A stretch of 51,148 nucleotides of DNA, from assembly GCA_001785965.1 (NCBI GenBank), contig MFVF01000030.1, forward strand, positions 1 to 51,148, in the 5' to 3' direction. Made by a program: the position numbers and the translations under genes. The notes below the pieces were generated by a model. The model searched no databases, was not told the DNA's origin, and saw only the letters and a program-made list of their open reading frames with translations. This DNA comes from Candidatus Nomurabacteria bacterium RIFCSPLOWO2_01_FULL_42_20. Its GTDB lineage: Bacteria > Patescibacteriota > Minisyncoccia > Phycocordibacterales > CAZVEC01. The stretch's first letter is position 1; each line of letters opens with the position of its first letter. This document shows positions 2,139-51,115 of the stretch, piece after piece.

Positions 2139-3761
2139 ATGACTCAATTAGAGGCACTGAATGTTTTAAAGACTGGCGCCAATGTATTTCTGACCGGCGA
2201 GCCCGGATCGGGGAAGACTTATGTTGTCAATCAATATGTGAAGTATTTGCGCGAACGAAAAATCGAGCCGGCGATTACCGCTTCGACCGGCATTGCCGCC
2301 ACGCACATCGGCGGATATACCATTCACTCTTGGAGCGGGATCGGCATTAAAAATACGCTGACGAAATATGATCTGGATAAAATTGCGCAGAGCGAATATC
2401 TCACTCGCCGGATCCGCAAAGCCAAAGTCTTGATCATTGACGAGATTTCCATGCTCCGCGCCGAGACGCTTTCCATGATTGACGCGGTTTGCCGAGAGGT
2501 GAGGCAATCAAGCGAAGCATTTGGAAATTTGCAAGTAGTTTTAGTCGGCGACTTTTTCCAGTTGCCGCCCATCAATAAGGAGAAACAGGAGAACATTCAA
2601 GTTTCTTTATTGAGTGAAAAGGAAGCTAATTTCGCGTATGAATCAGGAGCCTGGAAAAATATTAAACCGATAACCTGCTATTTGAGCGAACAGCACCGCC
2701 AGGACGACGGCCAATTCTTGGATCTCCTCTGCGCCATTCGGCGCGATACGGTAAATCAAGATCACCTAGATTGTTTGCGGTCGCGTTTTGTCGAAACTGG
2801 TCAGGAAAATATCACCAAGCTTTATTCGCACAATGCCGATGTTGACCGGGTTAATTTGGAAATGTTGGAAAAAATTGGCGAAGAAACGGTTAATTTTGAA
2901 ATGACTTCGGCCGGAGCGCCGGGACTTGTCGCGGGCTTAAAAAAAGGATGCCTCTCGCCGGAGTCGCTTGCGCTCAAAAAACGGGCGGTCGTCATGTGCA
3001 CAAAAAATAATCCGAAGGAGGGTTTTGTAAATGGCACTTTGGGTGTGGTGGCGGATTTTGACGGCTATACTAAATATCCGATTGTGAAAACTTATTCAGG
3101 GCAAACGATTAAAATCTCGCCGATGGATTGGAGCATTGAAGAGCAAGGTAAAATCAAAGCGAAAATCAGCCAAGTTCCGCTTCGGCTGGCCTGGGCGATG
3201 ACGGTTCATAAAAGCCAGGGGATGAGTTTAGATTCGGCGGTGATGGACTTGTCGGGAGTTTTTGAATACGGGCAGGGCTATGTCGCTCTCTCGCGGGTCT
3301 GCCGGCTGTCGGGACTTCATTTGCTTGGTTTGAACGACCGGGCGCTCAAAGTGCATCCGCAAATTTTTGAGCAAGATAATGTTTTTAAAAACGCTTCGGA
3401 GGAGACGCGGAAAACTTTCGGCGAATTGCCGGCCGAAGAAATGAAAAAAATGCACCGCAATTTCATTTCGGCCTTGGGCGGTAAATGGAAGGAAAAGGAA
3501 GTCCCGATGCCCGGAGGGGTCGGGATCCCGACTTCTCCCCAAAAGGAGAATGTCGGGAAAAAACCAAAAAGCAACTATCTGGAAAAAATTCGCGAAAAGC
3601 ACAAAAACGCCTACGCTCGGTGGAGAAAGGAAGAGGAGAAAGATTTAGTCCAAAATTTCAATGAAGGAAAAACAATAAAAGAAATTTCGATTTTACTCGG
3701 CCGAAAAACCGGCGGCATAAGAGCTAGGCTGGTCAAACTTGGCCTGTTGGAAGAAAATTAA
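2139..3761 (+). CDS. Pif1/RecD-family (SF1B) DNA helicase with C-terminal HTH-like tail
   Basis: Walker A GEPGSGKTY, IDEISML, VLVGDFFQLPP, MTVHKSQGMSLD, YVALSRV. C-terminal tail KTIKEISILLGRKTGGIRARLVKLGL. Confidence 0.8.
   Translation: MTQLEALNVLKTGANVFLTGEPGSGKTYVVNQYVKYLRERKIEPAITASTGIAATHIGGYTIHSWSGIGIKNTLTKYDLDKIAQSEYLTRRIRKAKVLIIDEISMLRAETLSMIDAVCREVRQSSEAFGNLQVVLVGDFFQLPPINKEKQENIQVSLLSEKEANFAYESGAWKNIKPITCYLSEQHRQDDGQFLDLLCAIRRDTVNQDHLDCLRSRFVETGQENITKLYSHNADVDRVNLEMLEKIGEETVNFEMTSAGAPGLVAGLKKGCLSPESLALKKRAVVMCTKNNPKEGFVNGTLGVVADFDGYTKYPIVKTYSGQTIKISPMDWSIEEQGKIKAKISQVPLRLAWAMTVHKSQGMSLDSAVMDLSGVFEYGQGYVALSRVCRLSGLHLLGLNDRALKVHPQIFEQDNVFKNASEETRKTFGELPAEEMKKMHRNFISALGGKWKEKEVPMPGGVGIPTSPQKENVGKKPKSNYLEKIREKHKNAYARWRKEEEKDLVQNFNEGKTIKEISILLGRKTGGIRARLVKLGLLEEN
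3498..3535 (+). repeat. GC-rich palindromic element inside the helicase C-terminal linker (in frame)
   Basis: GAAGTC (3498-3503) pairs with GACTTC (3530-3535). It contains GTCGGGATCCCGACTTC (3519-3535), identical to 93-109 in the tRNA insert. Encodes VPMPGGVGIPTS. Confidence 0.55.
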
Positions 3762-3783: not shown

Positions 3784-3819
3784 CAACATTCTCACATTCT
3801 TGAGAATGTGAGAATGTTG
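3784..3819. repeat. 36-bp palindrome (17-bp arms), variant of the CATTCTAACATTCTA family
   Basis: CAACATTCTCACATTCT-tg-AGAATGTGAGAATGTTG, 23 nt after the helicase stop. Related to the palindromes at 21409-21450 and 25101-25130. Confidence 0.8.
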
Positions 3820-20842: not shown

Positions 20843-21364
20843 GTGAAAATAATTTTATTAAAAGACGTGCCGAAATTGGGACGAAAATACGATATCAAAG
20901 AAGCCAGCGACGGCTACGCTTTGAATTTTTTGATTCCCAGAAAATTAGCTGAAAGAGCCACTCCAGAAAAAATCGCCCAAATTGATAAATTAAAAAAAGA
21001 AATGCTGATTGCCAAAGAAGCGGGGGAGCAGGAGCTTTTGAAGGCCTTGGGGGCCATCAAAGGTCTAGAATTGATCATGAAAGCCAAAGTTTCCGACCTG
21101 CCTGCTCGCCTCGCTGACTCGCCTCGCTTCGCGGGCGAAGCGGGAGCTCCGGCGAAGCGGGCCGGCAAGGCAGGAAAAGGCCACCTTTTCTCGAGCATCA
21201 AAAAAGAAGATATAATAGAAAAAATGAAAAAAGATTATAACATAAGTCTCTCCGAGGATTCCATAAAAATGGAAAGCATAAAAGAAACAGGGGAGTTTGA
21301 AATACCGGTCGAAGTCAGCGGCAAAAAATCATCCTTCAAATTGATTGTTGAAAAGATTGATTAA
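20843..21364 (+). CDS. rplI: 50S ribosomal protein L9 (GTG start)
   Basis: MKIILLKDVPKLGRKYDIKEASDGYALNFLIPRKLA, with GHLFSSIKKEDI in the C-domain. Contains a 26-codon GC-rich insert. Confidence 0.9.
   Translation: MKIILLKDVPKLGRKYDIKEASDGYALNFLIPRKLAERATPEKIAQIDKLKKEMLIAKEAGEQELLKALGAIKGLELIMKAKVSDLPARLADSPRFAGEAGAPAKRAGKAGKGHLFSSIKKEDIIEKMKKDYNISLSEDSIKMESIKETGEFEIPVEVSGKKSSFKLIVEKID
21097..21174 (+). repeat. 78-nt GC-rich palindromic element inserted in frame in rplI
   Basis: CCTGCC (21097-21102) pairs with GGCAGG (21169-21174). Internal hairpin CGCTTCG-cggg-CGAAGCG (21125-21142). Encodes roughly DLPARLADSPRFAGEAGAPAKRAGKA between KAKVS and GKGHLF. Confidence 0.7.
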
Positions 21365-21408: not shown

Positions 21409-21450
21409 ATTATTCATTCTAACATTCTATAGAATGTTAGAATGAATAAT
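21409..21450. repeat. Perfect 42-bp palindrome with core CATTCTAACATTCTA|TAGAATGTTAGAATG
   Basis: Arms 21409-21429 and 21430-21450 are exact reverse complements. The 30-bp core is identical to 25101-25130. Confidence 0.9.
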
Positions 21451-21478: not shown

Positions 21479-21637
21479 ATGGAAAATAAATCAGAAACAA
21501 AAACACATTCGACAAGCCCCCACACCTTTTTACAAAAAGGTGTGGGGGCAAGCTCAGTGCAGGCCTGCCAAAACTGCAAGCAAAACTTCACGATCGAACC
21601 GGAATCCCAGCACTACATCAATTTATCGAATGCATAA
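21479..21637 (+). pseudogene. 5' fragment of a third Cys-rich zinc-ribbon paralog, carrying a hairpin element
   Basis: Reads MENKSET...CQNCKQNFTIEPE. All but one of the first 19 nt match the start of the gene at 23416. A perfect 15-bp-stem hairpin, CCCCCACACCTTTTT-ac-AAAAAGGTGTGGGGG (21517-21548), lies in frame. The ORF stops after 52 codons. Confidence 0.55.
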
Positions 21638-25095: not shown

Positions 25096-25100
25096 TATAG

Positions 25101-25130
25101 CATTCTAACATTCTATAGAATGTTAGAATG
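25101..25130. repeat. Perfect 30-bp palindrome, identical to the core at 21415-21444
   Basis: CATTCTAACATTCTA|TAGAATGTTAGAATG, beginning 6 nt after the paralog 2 stop. Confidence 0.9.
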
Positions 25131-25157
25131 TTATTCAAGCGGAGGTTGTATAATCCA

Positions 25158-48667: not shown

Positions 48668-51115
48668 ATGGCTAATAAAACAACAAAATCGCAGTTTCCG
48701 GTTATAGGTATGCATTGTGCCAGTTGCGCTTTGACGATCGAGCGGGCGCTCAAGAAAGTGCCGGGAGTGAAAGGCGCCAGCGTGAATTTCGCGACCGAAA
48801 AAGCGACTGTTGAATCCGAAGAGGAGATTGATTCAAAAGTTCTCAAAAAAGCCGTAGCAGATACTGGCTACAATCTTATCGTCCAATCAGACGGGGTTTC
48901 ATCAGAGGGAGTTCATACGGAACATAAAATGGAGGGAATGGAAGAGAAGCCGGCGGACATGCATGACCATCACCGGATGCTCAAAGAAGCGGAAATAAAA
49001 AAACTGCGGAATAAATTCGTAATCGGCGCCATATTGTCTGTCTTAGTTATCCTCTTAAGTTTCCCGGATTATTTCAAAGTTTTTAATCTTGAATCATTCT
49101 TGCCAACTTCCTGGCGTTTTATTCTGCTTTTTATTCTCACTCTGCCTGTTGAATTCTGGGTCGGCTACCAATTTTGGCGCGGAGCCTGGTTTGGGCTCAA
49201 GGGTTTCCGGGCAAATATGGATACGCTCGTCGCCTTAGGCACCGGCACCGCTTTCATATTCAGTACAATTGTTACGATTTTAGAAATCGTCGCGCCAGTC
49301 GACGGGCTTGATGTTTATTTTGACGTGGCGGCTGTTGTTACCACTCTCGTTATTTTAGGCAAATTCCTGGAAGCGCGGGCTAAAGGCGCCGCTTCGGAGG
49401 CGATTAAAAAACTTCTGCGCCTTCAGGCGAAAGTCGCTCATATTGTCCATGAGGGAGGCCACATAATGGATATTTCCGTTGAAGAAATAAAGGCCGGCGA
49501 CATTCTTTTGGTTAAGCCTGGAGAAAAAGTTCCGACCGACGGGCTCATTATAGAAGGGGAGTCGTCTCTGGACGAATCAATGGTTACCGGCGAGTCCATG
49601 CCGGTTGATAAAAAAGTTGGCAATGAAGTCATCGGCGCGACGATCAATAAGACCGGGGCTTTCAAAATGCGAGCGACTAAAGTTGGCAAGGACACTTTTC
49701 TTTCGCACATCATTAAACTCGTTGAAGAAGCCCAGGCTTCCAAGGCGCCGATTCAGAAATTGGCCGACCAAATCACCGGTTTTTTTGTGCCGATTGTTTT
49801 GGCTATTTCTATAATTTCATTTGTTATTTGGATTTTTGCCGGGCCGGAACCTTCTTTACGTTTTGCTTTGATCAACGCGGTGGCGGTGCTGGTTGTAGCC
49901 TGTCCTTGCGCACTTGGATTAGCTACCCCAACGGCCATCATGGTTGGCACGGGCAAAGCCGCCGAGAGGGGGATTATCATCCGCGACGCCGAGGCGCTTG
50001 AGCTGGCCGGCAAGATTGATACAGTCATTTTAGACAAAACGGGCACGCTGACCAAAGGGGAGCCAATTGTTACAGATATCAAAGCCGGGCTTCAGAAGTC
50101 AGACTTCAAGGGCAGCCCGAAGTCTGACTTCGGGGAGCCCGAAGCCCGGCTTTTGCAAATCGCCGGAAGCTTGGCCCGCCTTGATAATCATCCTCTTGAT
50201 ATCGCCGTGGCAAAAAAAGCAAGCAATGAAAAACTGCTTGAAGTGAAAAATTTCAAAAACACGCCCGGCAAAGGTATCAGTGGGGAAATTGGCGGAAAGA
50301 AATATTTTCTGGGCAATCAAAATTGGCTCTCTGAATTTAATATTTTAGTTACAGAAGAAAATAATAAAAAAGTAATAGAACTTGAACAAGGCGGCAAAAC
50401 AGTTATTTTTCTTTTTTCCCTCGGCTATAGCCTTACGGGCGAGGCCCAAGATGAAGTTTTAGGCCTAAACCAATCCAAAGAATTGGTCGGCCCTAGAGCG
50501 ACCACGCACGGGCTAGCTCGAACTTCGCACGGCGAAGTTTTAGGCCTGATTGCCTTGGCTGATGAAATAAAAGAATCGGCTTTGCTGGCCGTTCAAAAAC
50601 TCTCAAGTCTTGGTTTGGAAATTTGGCTTTTGACGGGGGACAATGAAAGAACGGCGCAAGCTGTGAGCCGTAAATTAGGCATAACGAATATTATGTCAAG
50701 AGTTATGCCGGAAAATAAATCAGAAAAGGTGAAAGAATTACAAGCAAAAGGAAAGAAAGTAGCCATGGTCGGCGACGGCATCAATGACGCGCCGGCGCTT
50801 ACGCAGGCCGATATCGGCATCGCCATCGGCACGGGAACCGATATTGCGATTGAAGCGGGGGATATTACGCTTATCTCCGGCGACCCGATGCACGTCTACG
50901 AAGCAATCAAATTAAGCCGGCAGACCTTGCGGAACATAAAACAAAACCTCTTTTGGGCTTACATATATAATATAGTTTTGATTCCAGTGGCAGGCGGCGT
51001 TCTTTGGCCGCTTTTCGGAATCTTGCTCAACCCGATCTTAGCCGGCGGAGCTATGGCCTTTAGCTCGGTTTCCGTGGTATTAAACTCATTACGTTTGAAA
51101 AGAGTAAAGTTATAA
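48668..51115 (+). CDS. copA: Copper-translocating P1B-type ATPase
   Basis: HMA domain [32 protein letters not shown]. Two extra in-frame segments are present. Confidence 0.95.
50084..50150 (+). repeat. Nested palindromic element in frame in copA (after DKTGT..VTDI)
   Basis: GCCGGGCTTC (50084-50093) pairs with GAAGCCCGGC (50141-50150). GAAGTCAGACTTC (50095-50107) pairs with GAAGTCTGACTTC (50119-50131). Confidence 0.75.
50453..50547 (+). repeat. In-frame 81-nt insertion in copA bounded by a 14-nt direct repeat
   Basis: GAAGTTTTAGGCCT occurs at 50453-50466 and again at 50534-50547, exactly 81 nt apart (27 codons). EVLGL is encoded twice. Confidence 0.7.

What the first reader, a model, noticed from the sequence alone, without database searches (positions are those of the whole stretch)
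50084..50150. Nested perfect inverted repeats encode an in-frame KSDF..KSDF segment in CopA
A perfect 10-bp outer stem (GCCGGGCTTC with GAAGCCCGGC) encloses a perfect 13-bp pair (GAAGTCAGACTTC with GAAGTCTGACTTC). The element sits directly after the DKTGTLT..VTDI phosphorylation region. It translates as [20 protein letters not shown], where P1B ATPases normally continue straight into the N-domain. The symmetry is at DNA or RNA level, so protein selection does not explain it.
Basis: partly seen in the sequence, partly recalled or inferred. Interest (0 to 1): 0.62.

Follow-up and report, generated by a model that had tools for sequence, protein, structure and literature searches.

The report
Nested mobile hairpins inside copper-pump gene
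The odd symmetric stretch in this copper-pump gene is two tiny hairpin-forming pieces of selfish DNA, one sitting inside the other; they are read through as a floppy 24-residue loop, and they belong to a hairpin family that in related ultra-small bacteria flanks its own transposase gene.

Summary
The outer stem is 13 bp (50081-50093 / 50141-50153) and the inner stem is 13 bp (50095-50107 / 50119-50131). The fold is -50 kcal/mol (z -7.7), and the sequence is identical in five independent assemblies.

The inner 37 nt (50095-50131) is one copy of a dispersed hairpin repeat, GAAGTCwGACTTC-loop-GAAGTCwGACTTC.
- 107 stretches in species-representative genomes carry it, against about 0.01 expected by chance. 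Most are Patescibacteria and most lie in open frames.
- The identical 37-mer sits in a DNA ligase gene and an alanyl-tRNA-synthetase-like gene of other species.
- In groundwater metagenomes, contig depth rises 10-50-fold exactly over 50095-50131.
- The closest CopA homologues lack the insert.

In other Patescibacteria the same 13-mer brackets a REP-associated tyrosine transposase (RAYT) gene. Sister RAYT genes are bracketed by variant 13-mers, including GAAGCCwGGCTTC, which is the type of the window's outer arm. I therefore read the structure as a REP-like hairpin nested in the loop of an older, related hairpin. Together they form a 24-residue low-confidence loop at the hinge between the P and N domains.

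I class it as a new variant of REP/RAYT and RPE-like elements.

The parts
48668..51115 (+). CopA-type heavy-metal P1B ATPase gene (815 aa) that hosts the element
   Evidence: ORF. Pfam HMA, E1-E2_ATPase and Hydrolase. Best solved matches are CopA 3j09 and 3rfu. The CPC, DKTGT, TGDN and GDGxNDxP motifs are intact in alignment A1.
50081..50153 (+). The whole nested palindrome (73 nt). It encodes the 24-residue linker [24 protein letters not shown] (residues 472-495).
   Evidence: pLDDT is below 50 at residues 476-488, between confidently folded P- and N-domain elements.
50095..50131 (+). Inner hairpin element, the multi-copy repeat unit (37 nt): arm GAAGTCAGACTTC, loop AAGGGCAGCCC, arm GAAGTCTGACTTC. 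It reads [12 protein letters not shown].
   Evidence: Summed contig depth jumps at 50094/95 and falls at 50131/32 in four metagenome runs, and 17-24 contigs in each of runs X1 and X2 (6 in X3, 2 in X7) carry it with unlike flanks. The identical 37-mer is in L132 (DNA ligase) and L146 (AlaRS-like). 107 genome stretches carry the arm pair.
50081..50093 (+). Left outer arm AAAGCCGGGCTTC, a variant of the family's 13-mer of the GAAGCCsGGCTTC type
   Evidence: Perfect complement of 50141-50153. It is single-copy in the metagenomes. The same arm type brackets RAYT genes in L411 and L431 and forms an in-frame 36-nt element in L195.
50094..50094 (+). Unpaired A, read as the first base of the outer element's loop
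   Evidence: It is a bulge in the predicted fold. The assignment to the loop is inference.
50132..50140 (+). GGGGAGCCC, read as the rest of the outer element's loop. It resembles the inner loop GGGCAGCCC at 8 of 9 positions.
   Evidence: direct-repeat family D1. It forms a small side hairpin in the fold. The assignment is inference.
50141..50153 (+). Right outer arm GAAGCCCGGCTTT

Best explanation
The inner 37 nt (50095-50131) is a copy of a small REP-like hairpin element. Its 13-nt arm, GAAGTCwGACTTC, is the cognate hairpin of a clade of REP-associated tyrosine (HUH Y1, RAYT) transposases in Patescibacteria. By analogy with REP/RAYT and IS200/IS605 chemistry, such hairpins are recognised as folded single-stranded DNA, cut, and pasted elsewhere. 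This copy landed in the loop of an older hairpin of a sister type (arms AAGCCsGGCTT, 13+10+13 = 36 nt). That older hairpin already formed the variable linker between the phosphorylation (P) and nucleotide-binding (N) domains of CopA. Each element adds a whole number of codons without a stop, so both are translated. Together they give a 24-residue, probably disordered, surface loop at a hinge that tolerates length changes. The symmetry therefore reflects the element's own biology, not a function in CopA. What is shown: repeat-family membership, the boundaries of the repeat unit, absence from homologues, the RAYT association in other genomes, and a strand polarity of the family. What is inferred: movement by RAYT, the order of the two insertions, the identity of the outer stem as an older element, and neutrality for the pump.
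For: 1. Dispersal. The pattern GAAGTCWGACTTC N5-30 GAAGTCWGACTTC matches 107 stretches in the species-representative genomes, against about 0.014 expected (my arithmetic). About 62 are in named Patescibacteria.
2. True hairpins. Going by the listing, my hand count gives the centre bases of the two arms as complementary in about 96 of 110 pairs. Single, unpaired 13-mers are rare, 8 of 242.
3. Identical copies elsewhere. L132 (NAD-dependent DNA ligase) and L146 (AlaRS-like protein) hold the identical 37-mer, read as [12 protein letters not shown].
4. Boundaries. In runs X1, X2, X3 and X7, depth rises from about 3-24 to 8-686 exactly over 50095-50131. In X1 and X2, 17-24 contigs per run diverge at those two edges.
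5. Presence and absence. P0002 and P0003 (72% identical by BLASTP) and 15 further homologues lack the segment. A contig with about 94% identical flanks has 56 nt in place of 110 nt. A 97.6% identical contig carries the element unchanged.
6. A second hit in the same gene family. The CopA relative L087 carries its own cluster of the same arms at a different site.
7. Transposase link. Genes of 196-256 aa in L128, L172, L192 and L121 are bracketed by this hairpin. They match Pfam Y1_Tnp above its cut-off and NCBIfam REP_Tyr_transpos (L121 scores 88 bits against a cut-off of 80).
8. Co-varying hairpins. Of 48 relatives of that gene, 32 are bracketed on both sides by one 13-nt odd palindrome whose type differs between loci. 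Ten carry GAAGTCnGACTTC, and L411 and L431 carry GAAGCCwGGCTTC, the window's outer-arm type.
9. Outer versus inner element. They agree at 27 of 37 positions, and their loops agree at 9 of 11. L195 holds an in-frame 36-nt element of the outer type with the same 13+10+13 build.
10. Polarity. The sense-strand loop starts with AA in 33 coding copies and ends with TT (the reverse orientation) in 2 (p = 4e-8), although the reverse orientation would be open in 32 of 33. This fits strand-specific, single-strand insertion.
11. Structure. pLDDT is below 50 at residues 476-488, between P and N domain elements at 80-88.
Against: No second copy of either arm type exists in the 51-kb window or in the 3 kb downstream. 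No RAYT-like ORF is found there either. The extra depth in the metagenomes may come wholly from other organisms; one set of flanks is that of a different Nomurabacteria genome (L167). The scan for the outer-arm type was dominated by Planctomycetes hairpins and terminator-like hairpins of many phyla, so that arm sequence is not specific to the family. About 38% of family copies have locus-specific stems abutting the arms. The outer stem here could be that unexplained phenomenon and not an older element. The empty site in the near relative is 54 nt shorter, not 72, so the outer element cannot be a clean insertion into a linker of the relative's length. Hairpin type follows the RAYT tree only weakly (23 changes, against 26-29 in the ten shuffles printed). 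Transposition itself was not observed.
Confidence: 0.75

Rival explanations
1. Only the inner hairpin is a mobile element. On this view the outer 13-bp stem was made on the spot after the insertion. A nascent strand that ends in a strong hairpin snaps back and copies its own upstream flank, so the palindrome grows outwards (template switching of the quasipalindrome type).
For: 44 of 117 family copies have a perfect, locus-specific inverted repeat of 3-14 bp directly abutting the arms, against 1.6% expected by chance, and these stems are unlike one another. The outer stem here is single-copy in the metagenomes. The near relative's site is 54 nt shorter, not 72.
Against: Each outer arm is itself an 11-nt odd palindrome of the family's shape, AAGCC-s-GGCTT (chance about 0.001). 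It differs from the inner arm by a compensated T:A to C:G change. The 9 nt between the inner element and the right outer arm resemble the inner loop at 8 of 9 positions. That arm type is the cognate hairpin of sister RAYT genes. A simple snap-back predicts none of these features.
Confidence: 0.18
2. The whole structure arose locally in CopA by tandem or inverted duplication of a short palindromic unit, with no mobile element involved.
For: Three roughly 22-24-nt direct-repeat units can be drawn across the region, with 67-81% identity (family D1).
Against: The identical 37-mer occurs in unrelated genes of other species. 107 genome stretches carry the arm pair. Dozens of metagenome contigs with unlike flanks carry the element.
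Confidence: 0.02
3. The hairpin is kept in CopA because it does something there. It could be an RNA structure that slows ribosomes at the boundary between the P and N domains, or that controls the stability or premature termination of the message. Alternatively the KSDF..KSDF peptide could itself be a functional motif.
For: The structure is very stable (-50 kcal/mol), sits exactly at a domain boundary, and is unchanged in a 97.6% identical relative. The family has a fixed polarity relative to the sense strand.
Against: The closest CopA homologues do without it. The same element sits in unrelated proteins and between genes, and it is read in every open frame (SxTS, KSDF, EVRL), so no one peptide is conserved. 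No Rfam family matches and no terminator is called. No RNA data exist to test it.
Confidence: 0.04
4. The palindrome is an assembly or amplification artefact.
For: The site lies 1 kb from the end of the window's contig. Logan unitigs break inside the hairpin.
Against: The sequence is identical in five assemblies from different samples and pipelines, with contigs that continue 3 kb past the gene. The unitig breaks are what a repeat produces in a metagenome.
Confidence: 0.01

Closest known systems
REP / REPIN elements and their RAYT (TnpA-REP, HUH Y1) transposases, the 'REPtrons' of Proteobacteria (Bertels and Rainey 2011, PMC3116915; Di Nocera et al. 2013, PMC3733652)
   Same: Both are short (about 20-40 nt) hairpin-forming repeats dispersed in many copies. 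The same hairpin brackets a Y1 transposase gene on both sides, and each transposase lineage has its own hairpin variant. The protein matches Pfam Y1_Tnp and NCBIfam REP_Tyr_transpos, with an HUH motif (NHFH) and a conserved downstream tyrosine.
   Different: Most copies here lie inside genes and are translated in frame, whereas classical REPs are extragenic. The classical GTAG or CGTC tag is absent from the 37-mer. Each arm is itself an odd palindrome. Copy number per genome looks low, at most nine loci from any one assembly (nine in one Chloroflexota assembly, about five in the richest Patescibacteria assemblies) and one copy in this 51-kb window. The host phylum is Patescibacteria, for which I found no published description.
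Rickettsia palindromic elements (RPEs; Ogata et al. 2000, as summarised in PMC10969869)
   Same: Both are palindromic selfish repeats that sit in frame inside unrelated housekeeping genes of a reduced genome. Both add a peptide segment that the protein fold tolerates.
   Different: RPEs are about 100-150 bp, each encodes one conserved peptide, are confined to Rickettsia, and have no known transposase. This element is 37 nt, is read in several frames, and has a candidate transposase.
Small dispersed repeats (SDRs, 21-27 nt) of Nostoc and related cyanobacteria (Elhai et al. 2008; from my own knowledge, mentioned in PMC3116915)
   Same: Both are very small, hairpin-prone mobile repeats that are often found nested in one another.
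   Different: The sequences were not compared here. The three Nostoc hits to the arm pair (L093, L155, L166) are one orthologous intergenic site.

Membership tests
REP/REPIN-RAYT system | Short (about 20-40 nt) imperfect palindrome able to form a hairpin | tested here: met
   The unit is 37 nt with a 13-bp stem and an 11-nt loop.
REP/REPIN-RAYT system | Many dispersed copies in different sequence contexts | tested here: inconclusive
   Met across genomes (107 stretches) and in the source metagenomes. Only one copy was seen in the 51-kb window plus 3 kb.
REP/REPIN-RAYT system | A cognate RAYT (Y1 HUH) gene flanked by the same hairpin | tested here: inconclusive
   Met in other genomes. L128, L172, L192 and L121 are bracketed by the same 13-mer. 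Ten of 48 relatives carry GAAGTCnGACTTC and two carry the outer-arm type. No RAYT-like ORF is present in the window, and the rest of the genome was not searchable.
REP/REPIN-RAYT system | Extragenic location | tested here: not met
   This copy is inside CopA, and 71 of 116 family copies lie in open frames of at least 150 aa.
REP/REPIN-RAYT system | Conserved GTAG or CGTC tetranucleotide at one end (the two classical REP superfamilies, PMC3733652) | tested here: not met
   Neither tetranucleotide occurs in or directly beside 50081-50153.
REP/REPIN-RAYT system | Cleavage and strand transfer of the hairpin by the RAYT | not testable with these tools
   This needs biochemistry.
Rickettsia palindromic elements (RPE) | Palindromic repeat inserted in frame in protein-coding genes | tested here: met
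Rickettsia palindromic elements (RPE) | Length of about 100-150 bp with an RPE family consensus, in Rickettsia | tested here: not met
   The unit is 37 nt and the host is a Patescibacteria organism. RPE sizes are taken from PMC10969869.
MITE | Terminal inverted repeats of a parent insertion sequence plus a direct target-site duplication | tested here: not met
   No direct duplication flanks 50095-50131. The flanks are inverted, not direct: all three asymmetric positions of the outer arms are flipped.
Intrinsic terminator or a known structured RNA | Hairpin followed by a U tract, or a match to an Rfam model | tested here: not met
   No terminator is called at the site. Only chance-level Rfam hits were found, at most 20 bits against gathering scores of 100 or more for the hits on the palindrome itself (38-249 across all 16 hits).

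The most novel reading that the evidence does not exclude
Patescibacteria may carry a radiation-wide, still active RAYT-hairpin system with three properties. Its hairpins are written mainly into coding DNA, with a fixed polarity relative to the sense strand. They insert preferentially into the loops of earlier hairpins. After insertion the stems grow outwards using local sequence. Such a system would be a steady source of new linker and loop segments in essential proteins of these minimal genomes. It would also offer dozens of natural enzyme/hairpin pairs (GAAGTC, CAAGTC, AAGGTC, GAAGCC and others) for working out how a Y1 transposase reads its hairpin.
Probability: 0.35. Interest if true: 0.75.

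Novelty: new variant of a known kind. Interest (0 to 1): 0.58.

Why it matters
Two ideas that are usually kept apart meet here. One is the REP hairpins moved by RAYT transposases, known from Proteobacteria and regarded as extragenic. The other is the in-frame palindromic elements of Rickettsia, for which no enzyme is known. In these ultra-small bacteria one family shows both traits. If that holds, it names a candidate enzyme for in-frame palindromic insertions. It explains part of the many lineage-specific loops in Patescibacteria proteins. It also warns annotators and structure predictors that such loops are selfish DNA, not adaptive inserts. For CopA itself the practical message is modest: the pump's motifs are intact and the insert is most likely a tolerated passenger.

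Tried and rejected
1. Whole-genome search for further copies and for a transposase.
3. I tried to read the empty-site letters of the near relative by laying contigs on one flank at a time. Records that run over the end of the stretch are not printed, so no letters were obtained.
4. A protein search with a 139-aa piece, meant to catch gene fragments from short contigs, found no close fragment.
5. A scan for the outer-arm type was dominated by Planctomycetes hairpins with 5-nt loops and by terminator-like hairpins of many phyla. I rejected it as specific support and relied on L195, L123, L411 and L431 instead.
6. RNA evidence: only three tiny SOLiD metatranscriptomes exist, and they hold none of the sampled words.
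7. Rfam and the terminator scan found nothing.
8. Solved-structure alignments for the ligase and the AlaRS-like host proteins did not give clean insertion boundaries. The ligase loop differs by 6 residues from E. coli LigA, and the AlaRS alignment is poor.
9. Uptake-signal idea (like DUS/USS): rejected, because single 13-mers are rare and density is low.
10. General excess of odd palindromes in the window: only slight, 95 against 76 +/- 6, and none of the others has the family's shape.
11. ORFs lying between paired copies in several loci showed nothing recognisable as a transposase by eye. The transposase appeared only after I clustered the neighbouring ORFs.
Full report
THE OBSERVATION. The stretch 50081-50153 reads AAAGCCGGGCTTC-A-GAAGTCAGACTTC-AAGGGCAGCCC-GAAGTCTGACTTC-GGGGAGCCC-GAAGCCCGGCTTT. 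Both inverted pairs are perfect, and both are 13 nt long. As a single strand the stretch folds to -50.1 kcal/mol, with z = -7.7 against shuffles. It forms a long stem with one bulged A and a small side hairpin. Each of the four arms is itself an odd palindrome. The 13-mers occur nowhere else in the window.

The host gene (48668-51115, +) is an 815-residue copper-type P1B ATPase with all its motifs. The segment reads [24 protein letters not shown], residues 472-495. The gene is identical to the base in five assemblies from different samples, and in those the contig runs on for 3 kb. It is therefore not an artefact.

IS IT EXTRA? The organism is a member of the Patescibacteria (CPR); the best named relatives of the pump are Azambacteria, Harrisonbacteria and the like. 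In an alignment of 18 homologues, the two closest (P0002 and P0003, 72% identical by BLASTP) pass from VTD(I/V) to L(Q/E)IAGSL in 6 and 12 residues. The window needs 24. Against the solved CopA structures 3j09 and 3rfu the surplus is 14 residues. It falls in the hinge between the P domain and the first helix of the N domain.

An AlphaFold model is mediocre overall (mean pLDDT 60, from a shallow alignment). It still places residues 476-488 below pLDDT 50, between P- and N-domain elements at 80-88. That fits a floppy loop, although missing alignment depth in those columns contributes to the low score.

THE INNER HAIRPIN IS A DISPERSED REPEAT. A scan of one genome per species for GAAGTCWGACTTC, 5-30 bases, GAAGTCWGACTTC found 107 stretches, where about 0.014 are expected by my arithmetic. 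None was found in viral contigs.
- By record title, about 62 stretches are named Patescibacteria (Kaiser-, Nomura-, Taylor-, Nealson-, Portnoy-, Campbell-, Liptonbacteria, Paceibacterota and others).
- 17 are unnamed "bacterium" bins that share orthologous copies with those lineages.
- 16 are Chloroflexota, all with 5-nt loops.
- 5 are Ignavibacteria and 3 are Nostoc; the three Nostoc hits are one orthologous site.

The centre bases of the two arms are complementary in about 96 of 110 pairs by my hand count of the listing, so these are true hairpins. Lone 13-mers are rare, 8 of 242. L132 and L146 hold the very same 37-mer as the window. In L132 it lies in an NAD-dependent DNA ligase gene, and in L146 in an alanyl-tRNA-synthetase-like gene. 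In both it reads [12 protein letters not shown].

Of 116 copies, 71 lie in open frames of at least 150 residues. All stop-free frames are in use: SxTS/SxTS 22, KSDF/KSDF 14, the rest mixed. No one peptide is being selected. The share of copies in genes is no higher than the coding density of such genomes, so I do not claim a preference for genes.

BOUNDARIES AND RECENCY FROM METAGENOME CONTIGS. Twenty groundwater, soil and sediment runs hold the region. When contigs of four runs are laid on it, summed depth jumps at 50094/95 and drops at 50131/32. In X1 it goes from about 19 to 243 and back to 11; in X2 from about 24 to 686 and back to 13. In each of X1 and X2, 17-24 contigs carry the 37-mer at 90% likeness or more, with flanks that disagree with one another; X3 has 6 and X7 has 2.

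The repeat unit is therefore exactly the inner hairpin, and the outer stem is single-copy. One contig in X1 and one in X12 have flanks about 94% identical to the window, with 56 nt where the window has 110. That is an empty site 54 nt shorter. A 97.6% identical contig in X7 carries 50084-50142 unchanged. I could not obtain the letters of the empty site. One X2 contig holds two copies of the element 27 nt apart.

THE SAME GENE WAS HIT TWICE IN EVOLUTION. L087, the locus of homologue P0003, has no insert at the hinge. It carries its own cluster of the same arms at L087:4485-4551: GAAGTCAGACTTC, GAAGTCAGGCTTC, GAAGTCTGACTTC, reading KSDFNKLLKSGFGQDKLLKSDF. That is a different site in the N domain.

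A TRANSPOSASE GOES WITH THIS HAIRPIN. Notes from earlier agents of this scan suggested that Patescibacteria hairpins pair with RAYT-like genes. I tested that for this family. I clustered all ORFs within 400 nt of a hairpin copy. This gave one family of 196-256 residues in L128, L172 and L192 (Patescibacteria) and L121 (Ignavibacteriales).

In each locus a hairpin pair stands just upstream of the start codon. Directly after the stop codon there is either a single 13-mer at the tip of a local hairpin, or a second pair. The proteins match Pfam Y1_Tnp at 27-39.5 bits (cut-off 23) and NCBIfam "REP-associated tyrosine transposase"; L121 scores 88 bits against a cut-off of 80, the others fall below it. 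They carry an HUH motif (NHFH or NHYH) and a conserved downstream tyrosine.

A scan with their alignment found 48 relatives, nearly all in Patescibacteria. Thirty-two of them are bracketed on both sides by one 13-nt odd palindrome, and the type differs from locus to locus:
- GAAGTCnGACTTC in 10 loci
- AAGGTCnGACCTT in 8
- CAAGTCwGACTTG in 5
- AAGGTTwAACCTT in 3
- AATGTTwAACATT in 2
- GAAGCCwGGCTTC in L411 and L431
- several single types

Close pairs of genes share a hairpin type. Deeper in the tree the type changes often: 23 changes, against 26-29 in the ten shuffles printed. This is the layout of a REPtron. None of it is shown in the window's own genome.

THE OUTER STEM. The outer arms (AAAGCCGGGCTTC / GAAGCCCGGCTTT) have the family's shape. 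They differ from the inner arm mainly by a T:A to C:G change, which is compensated within the arm and again in the partner arm. If the inner 36-37 nt are removed, what remains is AAAGCCGGGCTTC-AGGGGAGCCC-GAAGCCCGGCTTT. That is 13+10+13 = 36 nt, or 12 codons, reading KAGLQGEPEARL. It agrees with the inner element at 27 of 37 positions and in 9 of 11 loop positions.

An element of just this build sits in frame in a Patescibacteria gene in L195: GAAGCCAGGCTTC-AAGGTGGACA-GAAGCCTGGCTTC, reading EARLQGGQKPGF. The same arm type forms a perfect hairpin in L123. It brackets the RAYT genes of L411 and L431.

I therefore read the structure as a younger hairpin nested in the loop of an older sister hairpin, at about 55-60% likelihood. 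The main rival rests on a general and unexplained trait of the family. In 44 of 117 copies a locus-specific perfect stem of 3-14 bp abuts the arms, against 1.6% expected by chance. Such stems may grow by snap-back copying after insertion, or may mark insertion into pre-existing hairpins.

Two facts count against a simple nesting story. The empty site is only 54 nt shorter, not 72. And the genome scan for the outer-arm type is swamped by Planctomycetes repeats and terminator-like hairpins.

POLARITY. Among coding copies with loops of at least 9 nt, the loop on the sense strand begins with AA in 33 and ends with TT, the reverse orientation, in 2 (p = 4e-8). Some copies are orthologous, which inflates the count. 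The reverse orientation would also be stop-free in 32 of the 33. The window's inner and outer loops have the common polarity.

Y1 HUH transposases act on one strand of single-stranded DNA and show a replication-linked orientation bias (established for IS608; from my own knowledge). Genes in these genomes mostly run with replication. A strand-specific mechanism is therefore a natural reading, but selection on the RNA or the peptide is not excluded.

WHAT IT IS NOT. It is not a known RNA family and not a called terminator. It is not a MITE, because there is no direct target duplication. It is not an RPE by size or host. The 13-mers appear in no paper in the library except as part of an unrelated sequence in one methods paper. 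Three searches found no description of in-frame hairpin repeats in Patescibacteria. Other agents of this scan have met the same or sister families in other genomes. The phenomenon is thus recurrent in this scan, but I found no published description of it.

VERDICT. The segment is a nested pair of REP-like hairpins, translated as a hinge loop. The inner one is a proven member of a dispersed family whose cognate RAYT transposase I could show in other genomes. Three things remain open: movement by that enzyme, the history of the outer stem, and the copy number in this genome.

Noticed in passing
window 50420-50547: There is a second insert in CopA that only the window has: about 38 residues, [38 protein letters not shown]. 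It contains a perfect 14-nt direct repeat, GAAGTTTTAGGCCT, at 50453 and 50534. It lies where the chain returns from the N domain to the P domain. A 97.6% identical metagenome contig lacks it (172 nt replaced by 64). It is not strongly structured (z -1.6) and has no match in the fetched loci, but parts of it show raised depth in run X1.
   Followed up: partly
L087:4485-4551 and L087:4279-4295: The CopA relative P0003 carries its own cluster of three family arms (one is a half-and-half hybrid, GAAGTCAGGCTTC) at a different site in the N domain. It also has a 17-nt odd palindrome, CCAACACCGGGTGTTGG, in the hinge where the window has its insert. This protein also lacks 39 residues of the membrane part and may be decaying.
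   Followed up: partly
L088-L194, flanks of the hairpin pairs: About 38% of family copies have a perfect, locus-specific inverted repeat of 3-14 bp directly abutting the conserved arms. Some loci form perfect palindromes of more than 50 nt inside genes, for example L091 and L128. The cause is unknown.
   Followed up: partly
window 21409-21450, 25097-25134, 3784-3819: Perfect palindromes built on CATTCTAACATTCT / AGAATGTTAGAATG recur three times in the window, apparently at gene ends.
   Followed up: no
window 21097-21174, 3513-3538, 21516-21549: Other GC-rich hairpin inserts of unrelated sequence lie inside genes of the same window. Earlier notes of this scan describe them, including the ribosomal protein L9 gene.
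   Followed up: no
L196-L274 (Planctomycetes loci), L269:3377-3961: AAGCCCGGCTTC-N5-GAAGCCGGGCTT hairpins occur in very high copy number in some Planctomycetes bins; one bin gave more than 25 loci. In L269 a RAYT-like ORF lies directly beside one of them.
   Followed up: partly
L088, L101, L127, L130, L135, L147, L173, L177, L190: One Chloroflexota bin carries at least nine copies of the GAAGTCwGACTTC hairpin with 5-nt loops. The same arm therefore serves as a repeat outside Patescibacteria.
   Followed up: no
alignment A1, rows P0010, P0072, P0030: Other Patescibacteria CopA homologues carry their own lineage-specific inserts, for example GSTRLTTGGSTRLTTGGSTGSPQ, and a 40-residue KLQTNSKLQISNSKQF... 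segment. These look like translated repeats.
   Followed up: no
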